From IMG/VR virus record IMGVR_UViG_3300045988_098681: DNA of 64,000 nt; one strand, given 5' to 3'. The notes under the pieces were generated by a model that did no database searches, had not been told where the DNA came from, and was given only the letters and a program-made list of their open reading frames with translations. Positions 3,548-56,381 of the stretch are shown here, in pieces (the stretch's first letter is position 1; each line of letters opens with the position of its first letter). Both the position numbers and the translations under genes were made by a program. The stretch comes from a virus.

Positions 3548-4852
3548 TGAGAGTAGAAGAATGGCTTGGCGAAGATAATAAGATTGGGTTAGATATTTGG
3601 CACAAAAAGTATCAACATGGCAATGAGACATTCGATGAATGGCTTGATAGAGTAAGTGGAGGTGATAATGACCTAAGAGAACTCATTAAAAGTAAAAAGT
3701 TCTTATTTGGTGGCAGAGTGCTTGCGAATCGAGGTGTGCCAGATAGTGGGAATTTTTATAATTGCTTTTCTGCCGGATATGTAAAAGACGATTATGCAAG
3801 TATTATGGACGTATTAAAAGAAGTTGGTATTACGTTCAAGTATCAAGGTGGTCAAGGAATCTCCATGTCGAAACTTCGTCCAAAAGGAACAAAAATTGGC
3901 GATAATTATGAGTCAGATGGTATTGTTCCTTTTATTGAAATGTTCAATTCTGTCACTAAAGGTACTTCGCAAGGCGGTGCAAGAAAAGGTGCTTTGATGA
4001 TTAGCTTAGACATCAATCACAAAGAAGCCGAAACATTCATCAAGCTAAAAACTGATCTTGACGCTGTAACAAAAGCGAATCTCTCTATGGAAATAGACGA
4101 TGAGTTTATGACTGCGGTGCAAGAGTTCTACTATGATGGGACAATAAAAACATTACATAAGAGATACAACTACAATGGGCATGTTGTGGAATATGATATT
4201 ACGCCGATTGAATTGTATAAATTGATGATGGAAGTTGTATGGGACTACGGGGAGCCGGGGTGTATCTTTGTAGACGAATTTAGGAACAACAACTTTTTAG
4301 AGCTTGATAACGAGTATCAAATAGAAACTTGCAATCCATGCGGAGAACAACCATTAAAAGCTCGTACAAGCTGCTTGCTTGGCTCATTAAACTTATACGA
4401 GTTTGTTGAAAACAAGTTTACAAGTGATGTGTATTTTAACTTTGAGGAATTTGCAAAAGCTATTAAAGTAGCCTCAAATGCACTTGATAACATCATCGAA
4501 GAAAATGCTCCAAGGCTTCCTAAAGAACTGGAGCAATACAAACAAAACGCTTATGATTGGCGTAATATGGGGCTTGGTGTATTCAACTATGCACACATGC
4601 TCATGGCTATGGGGCTTAAATACGGTAGCGAAGAAGCGTTGGCTTTTACTGATACGCTATTTTACACTATGATGATAGAAGCCATTATATCAAATGACGA
4701 AAGGGGCAAAGAAAAGGGTAATTATCCAAAGTTCAAAGGCGGGTTAGTACAAAAGTCCACGATGTTTAGAAACCATGCCCCCGAAGAACTTTTACAAAAC
4801 GGTGCGCTACATGCTAGAAATTGCACGTTGTTATCTATCGCGCCAACTGGAT
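3547..4852 (+). CDS. nrdJ: class II (B12-dependent) ribonucleotide reductase, exon 1
   Basis: GGAGGA RBS at 3535-3540. RNR active-site motif 'CNPCGEQPL'. The ORF breaks right after 'LLSIAPTG', with a stop 3 codons later. Confidence 0.8.
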
Positions 4853-5155
4853 TAACACAATAGGTTCAGTATAAACTATTTTAATTGCTGGAAACCCCTT
4901 AGAGCTACTTAAACTACAACGTAGGTATGAAATAAAACCAAGCGTGAATGTCTGAAAATTAAGTAGATTGGGCAATCAGCAGCTAAGACTCGAATAGAGT
5001 AAAGTTCAACGACTATCCCGCAAGGGAGTACACAATAAGCAAGAAATGATTGTGGAAAAGGATAGATACTATTTATAGTATAAGATATAGTCTATTCTTA
5101 TAGGAAACTATAAGCAGTTATATAACGGCAAATGTCTTGCGAACATTTGTGAATG
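4853..5155 (+). ncRNA. group I self-splicing intron (ORF-less, ~303 nt)
   Basis: R-like core 'GTTCAACGACTAT' at 4994-5006 and S-like core 'AAGATATAGTC' at 5082-5092. A 7-bp P1 pairs exon ACTGGAT (4846-4852) with GTTCAGT (4864-4870), with U.G at the splice site. The intron ends on G5155 and the exons join in frame. Confidence 0.8.
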
Positions 5156-6171
5156 TAAAAACTATTGCAACGATGGTAAATGGCGCAGGAGGGGTTGAGC
5201 CTGAGTTTGCCTTATCCTACACTCGTAGAACAGACAATTTAGATGAATCCTACAAGATTGAGTCAAACATCGTAAAAGAATATCGTATAATCACAGGCAA
5301 CACAGGCGAGCTACCAGACTATTTTGTATCAAGCGCAGACATCCATTGGAGAGACAGAGTAAAAACGCAATCTGTCATTCAAAAACATATTGATACAGCA
5401 ATTAGCTCAACTGTCAACTTACCAAAGGAAACTACCAAAGAAGAAATCGAGGAACTATACTTATACGCTTGGATTTGTGGGTTAAAAGGAATTACAATCT
5501 TTAGAGATGGGTGCAAAAGACTTGGCATTCTCACAACACAAGAAGATGAAGCTACGCAAAGTGAAAAGCCTAAATCAGAACTCACTCGTGGAACCATTCT
5601 TTCTGTTTCCGACGACTTGATTGGCGCAAAAAGAAAATTGAATACAGGCTGTGGGTCTTTGCATTTTGAGGTATATTTTGATGAAGTGACAGGCGAACCA
5701 CTTGAAACCTTTGTAAACGTAGGCTCTAGTGGTGGATGTGAGAAAAACTTACAATTCATTTCTCGACTCATCTCACTTGCCCTTAGAGCAGGTGTATCAA
5801 TCGAGGATATTATCGACCAATGCAAGTCAATTAAACCTTGCCCTGCATATGTATCTAGGACTAATAAAAAACACGATACAAGCAAGGGATCAAGTTGTCC
5901 TAGTGCCATTGGATATGCGTTAGAGGATTTGTATGACAAAATCAAAGAACGATGCTTTGCGGATTTTGATTTAGAAGATGGTTATGTTGAACCATTGACA
6001 ATCAGTTCACCTGCAATCAAAGAATCAGATAAGGTTGTAAAAACAGGTGCAGATGGTCAAATGATTATTAAAAACTCTGATTGTATATGTCCTGAATGTG
6101 GAGAACCTTTAGTATTTGAGGGTGGTTGTAACCAATGCAAGGCTTGTGGTTTGTATAGTAATTGCGATTAA
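5156..6171 (+). CDS. nrdJ: class II ribonucleotide reductase, exon 2
   Basis: Continues '..(L)KTIATMVNGAGGVEPEFALSYTRR..'. C-terminal CxxC...CxxC zinc ribbon 'CPECGEPLVFEGGCNQCKACG'. Confidence 0.8.
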
Positions 6172-31085: not shown

Positions 31086-32153
31086 TTATTCAACCGTAAT
31101 ACTTGCATATCCTTCGATTGGGTTCTCGTTGCCAGCAGTATCAGTAGCAACAATCTTAATCGTTGCAGTTCCTTTTTCAGAAGCAGTAACTAAGCCCTCT
31201 GCGGAAACCGTAGCCGTAGCACTTGGAGTAACGGTATAAGTCATTTTAGTGTTGTCTAACGGCTTCGTGGATAAAGATGCACCATCATTGTATACTCCCC
31301 AAAGTTTAAGGGTAGTCGTTTCGGTTGTCTTTAATCTAATGTCAGCATTGTCTACTGCGATAGTAGTTAAACCATCATACCAATTTGTACCGTCAATAAT
31401 CTCTGTAAAGATAGCATAATTACCACCATCATTTTGGCAATCAGTAGTAGCTTTATATGGTAAAGCAGTACCAGAGAAGTTAGTGGTAGATGCTCCACCC
31501 GATGTCAACGACATATCAATAGACGGGTCTGGTAAGAATCTAGGAATCTTAACTTCAAGAGTACCAACCCTATAAGATTGAGTAAGGCTAGTTGTGCCTG
31601 CTCTAAATAGAGGATATTGAAGAATCATAGTGATTTCTTTCGGAATGATATTAGTCGGAATTACGAATTGTCTAGACGCTTCTTTATCTGCACAGAACTT
31701 AACACAAACTTCCGAACCCAATTTAAGGTTAGGAACTTTTGCTACTTTACCCTCAAATGTGAGCTTTTTCCATTCGTCTTTACCAGCATAGCTCCACCAA
31801 CCTAAAACGCCAAGTCCCTCTAAGGCAACAGGAGTTTCAGTAACCGTGATTTCATTTTCTTTTACAGTAGTGATAGATTCTAATACAATACCATTAGAAC
31901 CAACAGTAATTGCTGCGCCCATCTTTAAGGAAAGATATTCCAAAGAGAACAAGGCATCAGTTAATGTGGCATTCATAACGGAATCGTGGAAGTATTTTCC
32001 TAAAATCGGATTAGCTAATCCTCCTCTGATATCTTCACTAGTGACCTCAACACTTAACGAAGATTCAGTATAAGTGTCACCACTTACTACTAATTCGCCA
32101 GCGGAGTTGACACCCATACCAGTACCAACACCAGCCAAAATATATTTTGCCAT
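31086..32153 (-). CDS. major tail protein candidate with C-terminal Ig-like (Big_2-type) domain
   Basis: 355 aa. C-terminus 'TYTVTPSATATVSAEGLVTASEKGTATIKIVATD' is Big_2-like. A terminator follows the gene. Confidence 0.55.
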   Translation of the reverse strand: MAKYILAGVGTGMGVNSAGELVVSGDTYTESSLSVEVTSEDIRGGLANPILGKYFHDSVMNATLTDALFSLEYLSLKMGAAITVGSNGIVLESITTVKENEITVTETPVALEGLGVLGWWSYAGKDEWKKLTFEGKVAKVPNLKLGSEVCVKFCADKEASRQFVIPTNIIPKEITMILQYPLFRAGTTSLTQSYRVGTLEVKIPRFLPDPSIDMSLTSGGASTTNFSGTALPYKATTDCQNDGGNYAIFTEIIDGTNWYDGLTTIAVDNADIRLKTTETTTLKLWGVYNDGASLSTKPLDNTKMTYTVTPSATATVSAEGLVTASEKGTATIKIVATDTAGNENPIEGYASITVE

Positions 32154-36336: not shown

Positions 36337-37218
36337 CTAAATATCGTACTTCCAAATGTAGCCCTTTGCTCCAACTCCACCTTTTTTGCAACAACTATAA
36401 ATATAGCCCTTGCTAAGATTTAGTTCATTTGCTGCATCATTAGCAGTTTCGTATCTTTTGATTATAATTCCATCTAAAGATAATTGCAAAATAGGCACAT
36501 TCTTTTTGCTTTTATATCTTTTCTTTTGCAGTGGATTACCATTTTCAAATCTCCATTGATAACCGAAACAAGATTTATCTTCTAATCGGCAACATTCTGA
36601 AATTTGAGTTTTATTACAACCTAAAAAAATTGAAGCATCTGTTATTGACTTAAAAGTCCGAATAAAATTACCATCAAGGTCATATTGGCAAACACTCTTC
36701 TCTTTTGGATTTATATATGGTTTTGGTGGCTCTTCACCTTCAAATTGCCACATATATCCACCAAGAGAGTTTCTCCTATGAGAACAACAATTTGTTATGC
36801 CTCCTCTTGAAAACCCCAACTCACGTTCGGCTTCTGCCATACTGTCAAAAGTTTTAATATAATTACCATCTAAGCTATATTGACAAACTTTTTTACCCCA
36901 ACCGTTTTGACCATCTCCGCCTTTAGTCATATTATAACCACACCTAGGTTCATTAAAAGCATAACTATTATATTCCTTGATATAATATATTTCTCTTTTA
37001 TCTAGGTCTTTTGGTTGGCACTCTTCAATTATCTCAAATACAAAATTTTCAAATCCGTATTTTTGCATAGCTTTATATAATATTGTTCCTTTTGTTTTTG
37101 ATTTAAACGTTGTTTTATGTTCAATCCATCTCTTATGAATGTCTCTCGATTGCCCAATATAAACATGACCATTCATAATATTAGTAATTTTATATATGCC
37201 ACATATTTTTTTATTCAT
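36337..37218 (-). CDS. free-standing GIY-YIG homing endonuclease with three C-terminal repeats
   Basis: 'CGIYKITNIMNGHVYIGQSRDIHKRWIEHK' is the GIY-YIG motif. Three ~55-aa repeats follow ('VCQYSLDGNYIKTFDSMAEAEREL..', 'VCQYDLDGNFIRTFKSITDASIFL..', 'ILQLSLDGIIIKRYETANDAANEL..'). GGAGGAATTA RBS. Confidence 0.8.
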   Translation of the reverse strand: MNKKICGIYKITNIMNGHVYIGQSRDIHKRWIEHKTTFKSKTKGTILYKAMQKYGFENFVFEIIEECQPKDLDKREIYYIKEYNSYAFNEPRCGYNMTKGGDGQNGWGKKVCQYSLDGNYIKTFDSMAEAERELGFSRGGITNCCSHRRNSLGGYMWQFEGEEPPKPYINPKEKSVCQYDLDGNFIRTFKSITDASIFLGCNKTQISECCRLEDKSCFGYQWRFENGNPLQKKRYKSKKNVPILQLSLDGIIIKRYETANDAANELNLSKGYIYSCCKKGGVGAKGYIWKYDI

Positions 37219-37339
37219 TGTAATTCCTCCTGTCAAAAGAAATTAAACAAATAATAAAGTAATTTAAAATTTTGACAGAATTTTAAAAGGGATAGCTAGT
37301 CCTTGTCCTTTATTATTTGTTGTTTTTGTATTTTTTATT

Positions 37340-38204
37340 TTATGCAGTAATGGTATATTTACCAGCGTATCCTGCCGAGATAAACGCAAAATTCCATAAA
37401 CGGCGAAGCGTGAAATTGCTTGTGATGTCAGCATTATCATAGAACTGGTTGCCATTAGTCAGAGTCGGACTCATAACACCCTTAACAACCTTGTCTACGC
37501 TAGGAGATACAACATACAAAGTGTTGTCATCTAACAGCATACCAAAGTTATTGCCGGACGGAATTTGAGTAAGTTCGATAAGCTCATAACCATAGAAGTC
37601 TTTCATAATTCTTACAGAACCATCAGCACCTGCAACTTCCATTCTGAAACCTGCGGAATAGTCCGGAAGAACCTTAGAAAGAGCAGCAGCACTACCCATA
37701 AATACAGGTTTTGCGCCATAGTTGTATGCTTGAACTCTCTGTGCTAACTTAATAGCAGTTTGAACAGAGAATGCACCAGTTTCAATGAATTGAGTCGGAT
37801 AATTGTTAGTTGTGCTAAGACCTTCATTCAAAACCTTGATAGCATCAACAGTCATTTCTCTTTCGATAGAGATAACAGCCAATCTGATAAAGTCAGCCAA
37901 ATCTTCTTTCTTGGCGAGAACAGAAGCCATATCTACAAAAACGGTAACAAAATGTTCCTCTGGTGTGAGGATTAAGTTACCTTTATAGGATTTTTGACGG
38001 AAGCTCGTGCGTTCCCCCTGACCCCCACGCGAAATGACGTACAGAGTTCTCGGTTTAATATCAAATTTTACAGTATCGCCATAGCCAACCGTTCTAAAGT
38101 CTACGAACGGAGACAGGGAATTGGTCATATACTGCGGAATGAGGGAATTAACAACCTCGTTGACGATAGCCATAGCAGCAAATGTGTTCAAATTAAGGCG
38201 CAAC
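37340..38204 (-). CDS. major capsid protein candidate, exon 2
   Basis: No ATG at the ORF start. The frame joins exon 1 as '..QVQWV|LRLNLNTFAAMAIVNE..'. Positioned after the portal and scaffold-like genes. Confidence 0.6.
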
Positions 38205-38567
38205 CCTTAATCCAGTCTTGCCCTCGCCAAAAGGCAGACCTCTCATACTTTCATATGAGTTCAGACTATATCTGCATCTTATATTTCGATATAAGAGCCT
38301 CATTTTTCTTTCGCCATAAACTTGCGATTTTACATCCCCCTCAAGGGGCTAGTCGTTGAGCGTTCCTCTATTCGAGGCTTCGTTGCTAAACACCCATTTA
38401 CATTCACTTAGGATTTAACCTTATGAATATCTCTTTTACTTTTTTCTACTTTCGTAACATTCACGCCTAGACTTATTTCATTCTTACGTTGTAGTGAAAA
38501 GAGCTTTAGGGATTCAAAGCATTTAACGAGGAGTCTTTGCACCTCACGATACAAAGAGGGCTACGCT
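38205..38567 (-). ncRNA. group I self-splicing intron (ORF-less, ~363 nt)
   Basis: On the - strand: P1 GGGU|AGCGUA GCCC, an R-like 'CGCTCAACGACTAGCC' (~38347-38362), an S-like 'AGATATAGTCTGAAC' (~38261-38275), ending on G38205. Confidence 0.75.
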
Positions 38568-38794
38568 ACCCATTGAACTTGCGGATTTGCCATCCAAGAG
38601 TTCGGACAATCAGCTTCTTTAACGCCTGCTAATCTTTCGATTTCAGCAAAATAACCATTAGAAACCTTTTCAGCCATTTCATACATCGGAATGGACGGTG
38701 TTCTGTTGCTATTCTTGCAAGCGTAATATTCATCAAACGCAACATAGAAATCTGTGTTTCCATTTGCGAATTTCTTTAATTCATTGGTAATCAT
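38568..38794 (-). CDS. major capsid protein candidate, exon 1
   Basis: 77-aa ORF with a good RBS. Stop lies 2 codons after the proposed splice site. Confidence 0.6.
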
Positions 38795-50239: not shown

Positions 50240-50314
50240 TGGCATACCTACTACGAATCGAACATAGATATACGGTTTTGGAGACCGCTGTTTTCCCAAT
50301 TAAACTATAGGCAC
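50240..50314 (-). tRNA. tRNA-Trp: tRNA-Trp (anticodon CCA), CCA-encoded
   Basis: Cloverleaf folded by eye: acceptor GTGCCTA/TAGGTAT, D stem GTTT/AAAC, anticodon stem GCGGT/ACCGT with loop CTCCAAA, T arm CTATG-TTCGATT-CGTAG. Confidence 0.75.
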
Positions 50315-50377
50315 ATATCAGATGAGTTAAGTTTCTCTAACTCACCAAGTACGCATCCGAAAACACATACCCCAATT

Positions 50378-50740
50378 TTAAAATAATTCTTGTTCAGTTA
50401 TTCCAATATTTTCTTCTGTATATGGTAAAAACAAATGACCAAATCTACCACGCACTTCTCCATTATCTTTTGGAAATCTTAAAAAATGTTTGTAATCTGT
50501 TAATAGCTTAGGACAATTTTTTTCTACCCACTGTTTAGTTGCAGTAATACAATAATCCGAAGACGTATCTACAAAATTAAATACTACAAATACTACACAT
50601 AATTTATTTTCTTTTACCCAATCTTCATTGTCAAATGGAATTTTTAAATTGTCTTCAAACCATGTGATAAAAGGTTCATCATCAGGAAAATCTCTTTCTA
50701 AAAACCAATTATTTAATTCAAAATAAATTATATTTTCCAT
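50378..50740 (-). CDS. hypothetical protein
   Basis: 120-aa ORF between tRNA genes. Confidence 0.5.
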   Translation of the reverse strand: MENIIYFELNNWFLERDFPDDEPFITWFEDNLKIPFDNEDWVKENKLCVVFVVFNFVDTSSDYCITATKQWVEKNCPKLLTDYKHFLRFPKDNGEVRGRFGHLFLPYTEENIGITEQELF

Positions 50741-50770
50741 TACACCGTCCTAAACTTTCTATAAATTTAA

Positions 50771-50847
50771 TGGTGATGCCACCGAGGCTCGAACTCGGAC
50801 TTTTCAGCTTGAAAGGCTGATGTGTTAACCAGTTACACTATGGCACC
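50771..50847 (-). tRNA. tRNA-Glu: tRNA-Glu (anticodon UUC), CCA-encoded
   Basis: Acceptor GGTGCCA/TGGCATC, anticodon stem TCAGC/GCTGA with loop CTTTCAA, T arm CCGAG-TTCGAGC-CTCGG. Confidence 0.8.
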
Positions 50848-50925
50848 ATACGAAGAAAGTATAATAGATAATTTCTAAAATTTGTATTAAATCCCACAAT
50901 AAGAAATTATCAAACATAAAGGGAT

Positions 50926-51002
50926 TGGCGGGACATCTAGGATTCGAACCTAGAATCTTGCGGTTAACAGCCGCCTGCTCTAACCAGCTGAGCTAATGTC
51001 CC
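50926..51002 (-). tRNA. tRNA-Asn: tRNA-Asn (anticodon GUU), CCA-encoded
   Basis: Acceptor GGGACAT/ATGTCCC, D arm GCTC-AGCTGGTTA-GAGC, anticodon loop CTGTTAA, T arm CTAGG-TTCGAAT-CCTAG. Confidence 0.85.
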
Positions 51003-51300
51003 ATATGGATGCAGGTACTCGACACTCCCCTTAGCTAAATCAAAGGATTTTAGGTGGCGATAGTTCAATAACTTATTTGCCTAACATGTGCAAACAAGTT
51101 TATTCATGCTCAGCCACCTAGAACTTTCATTAAGAAAAATTGTTGGAAACGACAGGACTCGACGTTACGTTCAACTAAAAAAAGTTGATTCCTTATTCAT
51201 CGTGCTCTGTTTTGCCGAAGCTATTCCAGTTGGTATAGCACTCCAAAGGCTTAAATTCCCATGTAGCGATTTGGTACATATATGTAGTCACTTCTAGTTG
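51003..51300 (-). ncRNA. putative TnpB omega RNA (reRNA) / transposon right-end region
   Basis: ORF-free 3' flank of tnpB. Nested stems TAGGTGGC/GCCACCTA (51051-51058/51113-51120) and CTTATTTGC/GCAAACAAG (51072-51080/51090-51098). The single non-Watson-Crick pair is A-C on the + strand and G-U on the - strand. Confidence 0.4.
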
Positions 51301-52425: not shown

Positions 52426-53530
52426 TTACCTCCTTTTCTTTAAGATTTTATGAAAAGGAGAGTGGCGGGAACTTACCCCGCACATGCGTTTCTCTCTTGT
52501 TGAATATATGAGCGAGACTTTGGGAACCGTTTTTACCTATCGACATCAGCATAGTGGTATTCAACGTTATCGAGTATGCTCCCGCCTTGCCATCTTCCAA
52601 TGACTGAAAATCTCGCAGAAATCTTAAGTTATTTTACTAAGCTAAACAACTAAATAACATGTGCCATGAACCTTCGTTCTACCTTCCACAATCATCGTCA
52701 TATTCAACCAGTAAGTAGACAAGTCTGTGCCACAGGGAGCTACCCTATGACATCTTGCCTAGATGGAAACCATCAAATCTTACAAGGGGCTCTTTCTACC
52801 CTTAACTTTCACAAAGCATTCAGAATTATTTTCTTCAAATCTTCATCATTTGACATCATTTGACTTGTAAAATTACTACAGTCATTGCTTTTTGCTACTC
52901 GTACCTTGACCCTATCTTATACTTTGTCTTTCGACAATCTCACAGCAAACTTCCTTAGTGGCACTTCCGTACTTATGCCGCTTGCCACAGCGACACAGCC
53001 CTCGGATTCGGCTTACGCTTTTAACGCTTAGCTTCTATTGTGGAAGCGATAGGACAGTGTTTTTAACAAGGATTGCTTTAGCACACACCCCCAGAACCAT
53101 TCTATTCATAAGTGGCATCTTGCATCTCACAATGCAAGCCTTTGACCGTTACCAAAGCTATCGTTTTGGCTAGGCTATTCTTACCCGCAGGTGGGTAGTG
53201 TTCTCTGCACCATGCTCTTGGTCTACACAGAGTTATGGCACACATTATTTAGTTGTCTAAAAATGGCTACGGGATTGAGTACCGCCCTCAACAATAGTCG
53301 GGTCAAAGCCGACTGCGTTCACTTGTTCGCCATCCCGCAATATTTGGTTGGTATACGATTGAAACCATATACCAACCGTAAGGAAAAAAATATGAAAAAA
53401 GCGTTTTTCTTTTTTATTGTGGCGCACCAAATAAATTTTATGGATGTCCTTTTAGGAGGTAAAACACAAAAAACAGAAAGGTTGGTTTTAGGTGCGCCAC
53501 TCGAATATTTTGTTGTTTTCTCTCTTTACA
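52426..53530 (-). ncRNA. candidate large structured non-coding RNA (class unassigned)
   Basis: ~1.1 kb downstream of a perfect consensus promoter with no ORF >=60 aa on the transcribed strand. Many stems: 53419-53428/53491-53500 (10 bp), 53346-53355/53368-53377 (10 bp), 53296-53301/53309-53314, 53119-53125/53132-53138, 52958-52963/52983-52988, and GTC-GAAA-GAC at 52926-52935 (GNRA only on the - strand). Confidence 0.35.
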
Positions 53531-55511: not shown

Positions 55512-56117
55512 TTATGTGGTTTTTTGAAAAATTTTGAGCAAATTACTAGGGTTTATTGTATATAAAGTTTTCAATAAAAGCACTTTATTCTTATCTGTTT
55601 TGGCTTTAGACTTCCTGCCATTTCCATCTAAATTTACCCTTAAATGAAAAGCTCTATCTATAAGCCAACTAAACAATCCAAGATAATCTTTTGATATATA
55701 TACTCGTTTAATATCTTCTACCATATTCTCAAAATCTTCTCGTAATATTAAATCGTCCTCAATATCATCAATCGCATTTTGGTATAACCTCAATCCATAA
55801 GCCTCTATAAACGCCTCAACTTTTTTAGATTTTCGTCTGTCCTCTTTGAGTTGGTGATGGTTGTAAAAATAACACATCGGCAAAGTTGACTCATTTGAAC
55901 GTATTTTAGGTGGTTTATAGTCAAAAAGTACATTCATAGGACATTGGAGCTTGTTGTTAATTTTATCTTTTGGTATGGCATAGTTTACATAAAGCCAAAA
56001 GCGTGGATATCCATTATGTTTTACATTAAGTTCTTGTTTTATGCGCCGTATTTCTGAGTTTAGGTCGATATCGTAAGTGCGCTTTGCATTGTCGATAGCA
56101 GCCTGCATTTGTTTTAT
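55512..56117 (-). CDS. YonO/RdRP-like polymerase candidate, exon 2 (junction approximate)
   Basis: The frame is open upstream of ATG 56108. An in-frame join '..ILSVVA|IKQMQAAIDN..' is possible. Confidence 0.45.
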   Translation of the reverse strand: MKQMQAAIDNAKRTYDIDLNSEIRRIKQELNVKHNGYPRFWLYVNYAIPKDKINNKLQCPMNVLFDYKPPKIRSNESTLPMCYFYNHHQLKEDRRKSKKVEAFIEAYGLRLYQNAIDDIEDDLILREDFENMVEDIKRVYISKDYLGLFSWLIDRAFHLRVNLDGNGRKSKAKTDKNKVLLLKTLYTINPSNLLKIFQKTT

Positions 56118-56381
56118 CTCTGGCTCTTTATCCAGAGCTTCTTTAAGTTTCCTTAAAGTATCGGACTATATCTTCACCATGCACTTTCGTGTTTAGGTGT
56201 TCAGCACTCGTGGGGGGATTATTGCTAGTTCTGCTCACCCCCTAGTCTCTGAGCCTTCCTATCTACTAAATGAACCTCGATAGGTTTGGCATATGGTTAG
56301 CATATGCTTTTGCACTTAGCTTTCCACTATTCACTGAATATTTTTTACTAAATGTTTCCACTTAGCTGACCCATTTTACTA
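56118..56381 (-). ncRNA. group I self-splicing intron (ORF-less, ~264 nt; boundaries approximate)
   Basis: On the - strand: an R-like 'GGCTCAGAGACTAG' (56242-56255), an S-like 'AAGATATAGTCC' (56163-56174), then a CTTTAAG-GAAA-CTTAAAG hairpin (P9-like) and a GCTCT..AGAGC hairpin before the proposed 3' splice site. Confidence 0.7.

What the first reader, a model, noticed from the sequence alone, without database searches (positions are those of the whole stretch)
38205..38567. ORF-less group I intron inside the major capsid gene candidate
A 77-aa ORF with an RBS and a 287-aa ORF lacking an ATG are separated by 363 nt. That gap contains P1 (GGGU|AGCGUA GCCC), R (GCTCAACGACTAGCC) and S (AGATATAGTCTGAAC). 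Splicing after 38568 and G38205 gives '..NPQVQWV|LRLNLNTF..' in frame. Capsid production would depend on ribozyme activity.
Basis: partly seen in the sequence, partly recalled or inferred. Interest (0 to 1): 0.65.

Follow-up and report, generated by a model that had tools for sequence, protein, structure and literature searches.

The report
Self-splicing intron splits phage capsid gene

Summary
Confirmed in kind, corrected in detail. On the minus strand an HK97-fold major capsid gene (YonB type, PF27364) is split by an ORF-less group I intron of IA2 architecture. The fold is supported by covariation in nine family members: 93% of cells paired, 55 of 89 pairs compensatory.

It lies inside a covarying hairpin (P9.2). 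Three intronless relatives (95-98% identical) and a P9.0 covariation place the terminal G at 38179. The inserted block is 38568-38179 (390 nt).

The same intron family sits at three or more sites of this capsid gene and in other genes of related gut phages. Some copies carry a nuclease ORF in the P8 loop. A free-standing GIY-YIG endonuclease gene lies just downstream here.

One point is unexplained. At 11 copies (7 or more sites) the frame closes only if the U that pairs with the guide G lies inside the intron. The 5' exon then ends in G, not U. Two other introns analysed the same way are canonical. This needs cDNA sequencing.

The parts
38569..38794 (-). Exon 1 of the major capsid gene. ATG at 38794-38792, ends ...CAA TGG G. 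It encodes residues 1-75 plus the first base of codon 76. An RBS (AAAGGAG) lies at 38812-38806.
   Evidence: ORF list and sequence. About 98% DNA identity to the intronless relatives L001, L128 and L129 up to G38569.
38179..38568 (-). Inserted element: an ORF-less group I intron of 390 nt, UAGCGUAGCCC...GAACACAUUUG. An in-frame stop (UAG, 38563-38561) two codons into the intron ends translation from exon 1.
   Evidence: Absent from three intronless alleles at exactly these limits. Rfam RF00028 39.4 bits. Covariation-supported fold. Folding z-score -3.98.
37340..38178 (-). Exon 2 of the major capsid gene. It starts CT GCT ATG GCT... and the stop is at 37342-37340. Joined product is 354 aa.
   Evidence: Homolog alignment. 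tblastn of the joined product covers residues 75-354 at 38182..37343. HK97 fold of the 95%-identical homolog P0001.
38558..38571 (-). P1 stem-loop. Exon GGG plus U38568 pairs with the guide GCCC (38561-38558). The loop AGCGUA carries the P10 guide bases.
   Evidence: Family covariation of exon and guide: GGGU/GCCC, GAGGU/GCCUU, UGGU/GCCA, and C.A in place of U.G.
38535..38556 (-). P2 hairpin, CUUUGUAUC-GUGA-GGUGCAAAG.
   Evidence: 8 of 9 pairs show compensatory changes and 100% of cells are paired.
38264..38361 (-). Catalytic core. It holds the R element and the P7 5' strand (GACUA, 38354-38350), P7.1 (38348-38336), P7.2 (38327-38311), the P3 3' strand (38302-38298), P8 (38295-38278) and the S element with the P7 3' strand (UAGUC, 38268-38264).
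   Evidence: Helix map. P3, P7.1, P7.2 and P8 covary; P7 is nearly invariant.
38192..38211 (-). P9.2 hairpin, AUUAAGG-GUUGCG-CCUUAAU.
   Evidence: 6 of 7 pairs are compensatory across the family and the loop GUUGCG is conserved.
38179..38191 (-). 3' tail UUGAACACAUUUG, ending in the terminal G (38179). U38181 and U38180 pair with A38261 and A38260 of J7/9 (P9.0).
   Evidence: P9.0 covariation with five pair combinations: AA:UU, AC:GU, AG:CU, GA:UC, CA:UG. The end coincides with the DNA insertion limit.
36337..37236 (-). Free-standing homing-endonuclease gene (299 aa) directly after the capsid gene. It lies in a block of about 1 kb (36341-37340) that relative L129 lacks. It is a possible partner in intron mobility.
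   Evidence: Pfam GIY-YIG, NUMOD1, I-HmuI NUMOD-like and I-TevI DNA-binding domains. Presence/absence against L129.

Best explanation
**What it is.** Window 38568-38179 (minus strand) is a mobile, ORF-less group I intron of IA2 architecture: P1, P2, P3-P9 with P7.1 and P7.2, plus P9.1, P9.2 and a short tail. It is inserted in the phage's single HK97-fold major capsid gene.

**How it works.**
- The gene is transcribed as one pre-mRNA.
- Ribosomes reading exon 1 stop at a UAG two codons into the intron.
- The ribozyme folds and its guide sequence (GUAG|CCC) aligns exon 1 (GGG) and exon 2 (CUGC).
- The 390 nt are excised, joining ...CAAUGGG to CUGCUAUGG....
- The result is a 354-aa capsid protein (...NPQVQW|AAMAIVNE...).

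**What is shown.** The fold by covariation, the DNA insertion limits, the position of the terminal G by P9.0, the host protein fold, and presence/absence polymorphism.

**What is inferred.** Self-splicing itself, and that the RNA splice sites equal the DNA insertion limits. If they do, the 5' exon ends in G38569 (paired to C38560), and U38568, the partner of guide G38561, is the first intron base. That departs from the usual rule that the exon ends in the U of a U.G pair.

**Mobility (inferred).** Homing by a nuclease. Close relatives carry a DUF7487+DUF559 ORF in the P8 loop of the same intron. This genome instead has a free-standing GIY-YIG endonuclease gene immediately downstream.
For: **Group I fold.**
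- Rfam RF00028 hit, E=1.4e-8.
- Hand-built structure tested on nine family members: 93.1% of cells paired against 75.9% in shuffles and 38-45% when partners are slid. 55 of 89 pairs are compensatory, and 0 of 500 shuffles reach this.
- Folding z-score -3.98.

**Boundaries.**
- L001 (98% identical), L128 (94.7%) and L129 (97.9%) lack the element and read CAATGGG|CTGC(T/A)ATGG.
- All 33 aligned homologs read W|A or W|S with no insertion.
- P9.0 covariation fixes G38179.
- P10 (CUGC:GUAG) lies in register with the junction and covaries in L007, L009 and L025a.

**Frame.** With the terminal G fixed, the long upstream and downstream frames join only if the wobble base is excluded, at 11 of 12 copies.

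**Residues.** Removing U...G restores the conserved Ala here and the conserved Arg/Lys in a second gene. Removing A...GC would give Val and Cys.

**Method controls.** The window's third intron and an Rfam-recognised intron in L011 come out fully canonical by the same analysis.

**Host gene.** HK97 fold, with 313 PDB capsid or encapsulin hits at E<=1e-3. An Enterocloster phage homolog is annotated as major capsid protein. It is the only copy in the window.

**Mobility.**
- The same family occurs in 42 IMG/VR stretches at several sites.
- L043 has the same intron (99% identical) with an ORF in P8.
- The family's intron ORFs are DUF7487+DUF559.
- A GIY-YIG gene lies adjacent.
Against: - No RNA data. 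An exact look-up of the predicted spliced proteins found nothing.
- The Rfam score is below the curated gathering threshold, for this copy and for every family copy tested.
- A 5' exon ending in G paired to C contradicts the near-universal U.G rule. A 2025 intron database even requires U at that position (PMC11835236).
- Some family members have C.A in place of U.G at the disputed pair. That is the substitution expected for a true cleavage-site wobble pair (own knowledge of ribozyme studies), and it argues that cleavage follows that base.
- L022 is in frame only if the U is kept. It lacks a 25-nt mini-exon and may be an assembly collapse of two adjacent introns.
Confidence: 0.8

Rival explanations
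1. A 363-nt intron (38567-38205) is spliced after U38568 and G38205, giving a 363-aa capsid protein with nine extra residues (VLRLNLNTF).
For: It is in frame and obeys both canonical rules, with the exon ending in U and the intron ending in G.
Against: - The nine residues are absent from 33 of 33 aligned homologs and from three near-identical intronless alleles.
- G38205 lies inside the covarying P9.2 stem, and the equivalent base is U in L003.
- P9.0 and P10 point to G38179.
- The extra residues would fall inside a predicted long helix, residues 71-97.
Confidence: 0.03
2. Fully canonical splicing. Cleavage follows U38568 and G38179, removing 389 nt. This leaves one extra U, shifts the frame and truncates the capsid protein at 85 aa. 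The gene would be defective, or only a minor alternative splice would rescue it.
For: P1 covariation with a U.G (or C.A) pair at the top of the helix is the classical signature of the cleavage site. The terminal G is well defined.
Against: - The same one-base excess is seen at 11 copies in at least four genes, including essential ones, all with intact conserved exons.
- L016 has no canonical in-frame solution at all, because of a stop in the tail.
- This is the only capsid gene in the window.
Confidence: 0.06
3. Canonical 5' cleavage after U38568, with exon ligation one base beyond the terminal G (after C38178). This removes A38567..C38178 and gives a 354-aa protein with Val in place of Ala76.
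For: It keeps the U.G rule and the usual P10 register, with +1 paired to the base 5' of the guide G. It is in frame at every site.
Against: - It requires an intron ending in C or U.
- It predicts Val here and Cys in gene X, and the analogous shifted junction in the RNR intron predicts Phe. Homologs have Ala/Ser, Lys/Arg/Gln and Ser at these positions.
- No allele with GGGTTGC was found.
- P9.0 places the G, not the following base, at the terminal position.
Confidence: 0.08
4. No splicing. The capsid is built from two separate polypeptides, 77 aa and a 287-aa product initiated at the TTG. The intervening sequence would be a decayed intron remnant or a regulatory spacer.
For: Both ORFs are open, and the downstream ORF has a possible TTG start.
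Against: - The TTG lies in the loop and 3' arm of a conserved RNA hairpin and has no RBS.
- Every helix of the ribozyme is intact in this copy and maintained by compensatory changes in the family.
- All uninterrupted homologs are single chains, and the junction falls inside a helix.
Confidence: 0.03

Closest known systems
Subgroup IA2 group I introns of phages of Firmicutes and of T4 (T4 td, nrdB and nrdD; SPO1; Staphylococcus Twort- and K-like; Bacillus cereus-group prophage introns)
   Same: - Same core architecture with P7.1 and P7.2.
- Same R and S elements, short P1 hairpin, and GNRA-capped P2 and P9.
- The intron begins with a stop codon (UAG).
- ORF-less and ORF-bearing forms both exist.
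- Homologous copies occupy different sites of one gene, with P1 adapted to each site, as reported for prophage tape-measure genes (PMC2504315).
- Core nt 42-330 is 68-75% identical to Herelleviridae introns.
   Different: - It scores below Rfam's gathering threshold.
- It carries a P9.2 hairpin with a conserved GUUGCG loop and an 11-nt tail.
- By comparative evidence the 5' exon ends in G paired to C, and the only U.G pair involves the intron's first base. td (own knowledge), the window's third intron and the L011 intron all have an exon-terminal U.
Group I introns in late or structural genes of phages (for example Lactobacillus delbrueckii phage JCL1032, cited in PMC6669764)
   Same: A self-splicing intron interrupts a virion structural gene, so virion production depends on splicing.
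   Different: Here a single intron family has invaded at least three positions of the same HK97-fold capsid gene in closely related gut phages: after W75, after ...SRGG, and after ...DKVVKG.
Collaborative homing between a free-standing endonuclease and an ORF-less intron (cyanophage psbA with F-CphI; own knowledge)
   Same: An ORF-less intron with a free-standing homing-endonuclease gene immediately next to the interrupted gene. Another intron-bearing allele (L005) has the same arrangement.
   Different: The target of the GIY-YIG enzyme is unknown. Two intron-bearing relatives (L003, L004) lack the endonuclease gene. Close relatives instead carry a DUF559-type ORF inside the intron.

Membership tests
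Group I intron (Rfam RF00028) | Score at or above the curated gathering threshold of the covariance model | tested here: not met
   39.4 bits against 50 (E=1.4e-8 on a 600-nt search). There was no hit in the whole-window gathering search. No copy of this family reached threshold in eight loci.
Group I intron | Conserved core of paired regions P3-P9, including the P3/P7 pseudoknot, supported by covariation | tested here: met
   89 pairs in 16 helices, 93.1% of cells paired, 55 pairs compensatory, 0 of 500 shuffles reach this, slid controls 38-45%.
Group I intron | P1: an internal guide sequence pairs with the end of the 5' exon | tested here: met
   Exon and guide covary between insertion sites: GGG/CCC, GAGG/CCUU, UGG/CCA.
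Group I intron | The 5' exon ends in U, which forms a U.G wobble pair with the guide | tested here: not met
   A U.G pair exists (U38568.G38561). However, intronless alleles, reading frames at 11 copies and conserved junction residues all place that U inside the excised block, so the exon ends in G38569 paired to C38560. This is inferred from DNA only. RNA evidence is needed.
Group I intron | The intron ends in G, positioned by P9.0 and followed by P10 pairing of the 3' exon with the guide | tested here: met
   G38179. P9.0 covaries in five combinations. P10 is CUGC:GUAG, with 4-6 bp in the window, L007, L009 and L025a. The DNA insertion ends at the same base.
Group I intron | Guanosine-binding site in P7 | tested here: inconclusive
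   P7 (GACUA/UAGUC) is present and nearly invariant, including its G-C pair, with 9 of 9 sequences agreeing at four of five pairs. Binding itself cannot be tested in silico.
Group I intron | Guanosine-dependent self-splicing | not testable with these tools
   It needs in vitro transcription and splicing, or cDNA from infected cells.
Subgroup IA2 | Extra helices P7.1 and P7.2 between P7 and the 3' strand of P3 | tested here: met
   P7.1 at 38348-38336 and P7.2 at 38327-38311. Both covary, with 3 of 5 and 4 of 4 pairs compensatory.
Mobile (homing) intron | Presence/absence polymorphism at an exact site in otherwise near-identical genomes, and association with a homing endonuclease | tested here: met
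   Present here and in L043. Absent in L001, L128 and L129 at 95-98% identity. L043 has an ORF in the P8 loop, and the family's ORFs carry DUF559. A GIY-YIG gene lies adjacent. Endonuclease activity and target were not tested.
HK97-fold major capsid protein | HK97-like fold, and a position in the head-morphogenesis module | tested here: met
   AlphaFold model of the 95%-identical P0001 has pLDDT 76 and pTM 0.73. The top 50 PDB matches are phage capsids, gene-transfer-agent capsids or encapsulins, all with probability 1.00. Homologs carry PF27364 (YonB) next to YonD_N, YomX_C and YomW genes. The PMBT24 homolog is annotated as major capsid protein.

The most novel reading that the evidence does not exclude
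This intron belongs to a widespread family in gut phages that splices one base upstream of the conserved wobble pair. The 5' exon ends in an invariant G paired to C. The U (or C) that pairs with the guide G (or A) is the first base of the intron, and at exon ligation the first base of exon 2 replaces it. That would be a natural class of group I ribozymes lacking the exon-terminal U.G pair, which is treated as defining. Boundary filters that require a U would systematically exclude such introns.
Probability: 0.45. Interest if true: 0.7.

Novelty: new member of a known kind. Interest (0 to 1): 0.45.

Why it matters
Gene callers split this capsid gene into a 77-aa and a 287-aa ORF. Rfam's curated threshold misses the intron, so automated annotation of these abundant gut phages will mislabel their capsid genes. 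Knowing the exact junction gives the true 354-aa protein.

The family shows how one ribozyme lineage can colonise several positions of an essential structural gene by retuning a 3-5 bp guide.

If the inferred 5' boundary is confirmed by cDNA, the family would be a natural exception to the U.G rule for 5' splice-site choice. That would be directly testable with a 400-nt transcript.

Tried and rejected
1. **Splice just after the conserved GUUGCG loop (7 extra residues).** It is in frame in the window, but it fails in L025a (19 nt left), L016 and L029 (stop codons) and L037. Rejected.
2. **Exact look-up of eight predicted spliced proteins among 15 billion sequences.** None found, so uninformative.
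3. **Scan of viral contigs with the 16-mer CCAACTGGATTAACAC for more copies of the RNR intron.** All 73 hits were chance matches.
4. **My first guess for P1 of the third intron (cleavage after CUGAGU).** It was wrong. Intronless alleles show the exon runs three codons further, to GUGGCU|.
5. **Search for uninterrupted homologs of the genes hosting the C.A-type members (L029, L037).** None among the fetched loci.
6. **Staphylococcus phage homologs (phiRNIID, DELF3) as annotated references for the 3' end.** In DELF3 the core is followed by an annotated transposase gene. In phiRNIID it lies between a tail-lysin and an endolysin gene. Neither is a cleanly interrupted gene, so neither is comparable.
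7. **Literature searches for a described exception to the exon-terminal U.** None found in the held library.
8. **L022.** It looked like support for keeping the U, but it lacks the 25-nt mini-exon between two adjacent introns. It is best explained as a collapsed assembly or a deletion, so it was set aside.

Full report
**1. The observation**

All features are on the minus strand.
- A 77-aa ORF runs 38794..38561, with an ATG start and AAAGGAG 11 nt upstream. A 287-aa ORF runs 38203..37340, with a TTG start. They flank a non-coding stretch.
- The R...S pair is found only here and in another intron of the window, against 0 expected from shuffles. The S decamer occurs three times, once in each of the window's three introns, against 0.08 expected.
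- Rfam's group I model matches 38613..38242(-) at 39.4 bits. That gives E=1.4e-8 in a local search but is below the gathering score of 50.

**2. The host gene**

- The joined protein has hundreds of relatives, mostly 350-369 aa, carrying PF27364 (YonB). One is called capsid protein by a source.
- Enterocloster phage homologs (38% identity) are continuous across the junction, and one is annotated as major capsid protein.
- An AlphaFold model of the 95%-identical P0001 (pLDDT 76, pTM 0.73) matches HK97-fold capsid proteins throughout the top of the PDB list, with 313 hits at E<=1e-3.
- The window has no second copy.

**3. The boundaries**

- The 98%-identical contig L001 (MT838494.1) lacks the element and reads CAATGGG|CTGCAATGG.
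- Two 100-kb phage contigs, L128 (94.7%) and L129 (97.9%), read CAATGGG|CTGCTATGG.
- So the window carries 390 extra bases, 38568..38179.
- Those residues would fall inside a predicted helix, residues 71-97.

**4. The fold**

- An 18-mer from P4/P5 retrieved 42 stretches of viral contigs carrying the same intron family, at several sites and in several genes.
- I aligned nine compact copies (376-425 nt) and mapped a hand-built IA2-type structure onto the alignment.
- 93.1% of cells pair, against 75.9% in shuffles and 38-45% when partners are slid by 1-3 columns.
- 55 of 89 pairs have compensatory changes, and 0 of 500 shuffles reach this.
- P2, P3, P5a, P6a, P7.1, P7.2, P8, P9, P9.1 and P9.2 all covary. 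P4, P5 and P7 are nearly invariant.
- The 390-nt RNA folds better than all 100 shuffles (z=-3.98).

**5. The 3' splice site**

- Two bases of J7/9 covary with the two bases before the last G: AA:UU, AC:GU, AG:CU, GA:UC and CA:UG. This is a P9.0 pairing.
- It places the terminal G of the window copy at 38179, the same base as the DNA insertion limit.
- The first bases of exon 2 (CUGC) pair with the guide (GUAG) next to the P1 strand. The equivalent P10 has 5-6 bp in L007, L009 and L025a.

**6. The 5' splice site: an unresolved anomaly**

*P1.* P1 covaries between sites (GGGU/GCCC, GAGGU/GCCUU, UGGU/GCCA). It has a U.G pair at its top, or C.A in L026, L029 and L037. By the textbook rule the exon should end in that U.

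*Evidence that the U is excised.*
- The intronless alleles have no U there.
- With the terminal G fixed, the long upstream and downstream reading frames join only if the U (or C) is excluded. This holds at 11 of 12 copies, covering at least seven sites in at least four genes. Keeping the U ends the upstream frame within 4-20 codons.
- Removing U...G restores the conserved Ala here.
- It also restores the conserved Arg/Lys/Gln position in a second gene, whose uninterrupted version is at window ~31932-32066. Removing A...GC would give Val and Cys.
- No public contig has GGGTCTGC or GGGTTGC at this junction.

*Controls.*
- The same analysis gives canonical boundaries for the window's third intron. 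Intronless alleles read GTGGCT|CAGGCT, and the intron is UAGUAA...AAAUG.
- It also gives canonical boundaries for an Rfam-recognised intron at the very site of the second gene: CUGGGGU|UAAG...ACAG|AAAUAC in L011.
- So the anomaly is specific to this family. The exon ends in an invariant G paired to C, and the only U.G pair involves the intron's first base.

*Caveats.* I could not find this described in the literature, and there are no RNA data here. It stays an inference. The C.A variants argue the other way.

**7. Mobility**

- L001 lacks the intron at this site. It has an 80%-identical copy further down the same gene (after ...ISRGG). Other relatives have it after ...DKVVKG.
- L043, from a contig 98% identical to the window, has the same intron (99% identical) with an ORF and RBS inserted in the P8 loop.
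- Full-length ORFs of this kind carry DUF7487 repeats and a DUF559 nuclease domain.
- The window copy has a 4-nt P8 loop instead.
- Directly after the capsid stop codon, the window has about 1 kb that L129 lacks. It encodes a protein with GIY-YIG, NUMOD1 and I-TevI-like DNA-binding domains.
- L005, another intron-bearing allele, has a similar gene there. L003 and L004 do not.
- Whether this enzyme targets intronless capsid genes is untested.

**8. Comparison and verdict**

- The element is a member of the phage IA2 group I introns. Its core is 68-75% identical to introns of Staphylococcus, Enterococcus and other Herelleviridae.
- Introns in phage structural genes, and homologous introns at several sites of one gene, have been reported before (PMC6669764, PMC2504315).
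- The finding is therefore real but of a known kind.
- The apparent exon-terminal G is the one feature that could be new.

Noticed in passing
window 4853-5161 (+): A group I intron (Rfam 73.5 bits) splits a class II (B12-dependent) ribonucleotide reductase gene. Seven relatives are uninterrupted and read APTG-S-IS/IA-TM. The junction GGAU|CUAUUG sits on a continuous guide: GUUCAG pairs with exon 1 and CAAUAG with exon 2. The intron would then end in A (tail GAAUGUAAAAA), not G. The flanking ~10 nt of both exons differ from the 98% relative, as expected for co-conversion.
   Followed up: partly
window 56106-56381 (-): A third group I intron (Rfam 77.2 bits) splits a 656-aa and a 198-aa ORF of unknown function. 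Intronless alleles (L130-L132, L134) show fully canonical boundaries, GUGGCU|UAGUAA...ACAAAUG|CAGGCU, with an in-frame UAG as the first intron codon.
   Followed up: yes
window 36337-37236 (-): A free-standing GIY-YIG/NUMOD1/I-TevI-like homing-endonuclease gene lies in a ~1-kb block (36341-37340) that relative L129 lacks, directly after the capsid gene. It may act with the ORF-less intron.
   Followed up: partly
window 52649-53256 (-), 51189-51249 (-), 50243-51002 (-): A ROOL RNA (269.5 bits), a RAGATH-18 RNA (63.1 bits) and three tRNA genes lie together in this phage genome.
   Followed up: no
window ~31932-32066 (-): The window's copy of a second structural-region gene (...EDIRGGLANPILGKYFHDS...) is uninterrupted. 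In relatives the same gene carries introns of this family after DIRG and after LLG.
   Followed up: partly
L025 ~4050-6050 (IMGVR_UViG_3300045988_104925): Two introns of the family lie in one gene, separated by a 25-nt mini-exon (UGGAUUAUCCAAUCCGCUUUUGGGG). L022 looks like the same gene with the mini-exon lost, either by recombination between the introns or by assembly collapse.
   Followed up: partly
L135 1440-1850 (Staphylococcus phage phiRNIID); L137 1250-1700 (phage DELF3): Homologous ribozyme cores lie after the annotated end of tail-lysin genes. In DELF3 the core is followed by an annotated transposase gene, which resembles intron-IS chimeras (IStrons). In phiRNIID an endolysin gene follows.
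   Followed up: no
L009, L016, L025, L033, L043 (P8 loops of the intron family): The intron-encoded ORFs (296-360 aa) combine an N-terminal zinc-ribbon-like CxxC...CxxC motif, DUF7487 repeats and a C-terminal DUF559 (Vsr-like) nuclease domain. This is not a classic GIY-YIG, HNH or LAGLIDADG homing endonuclease.
   Followed up: partly
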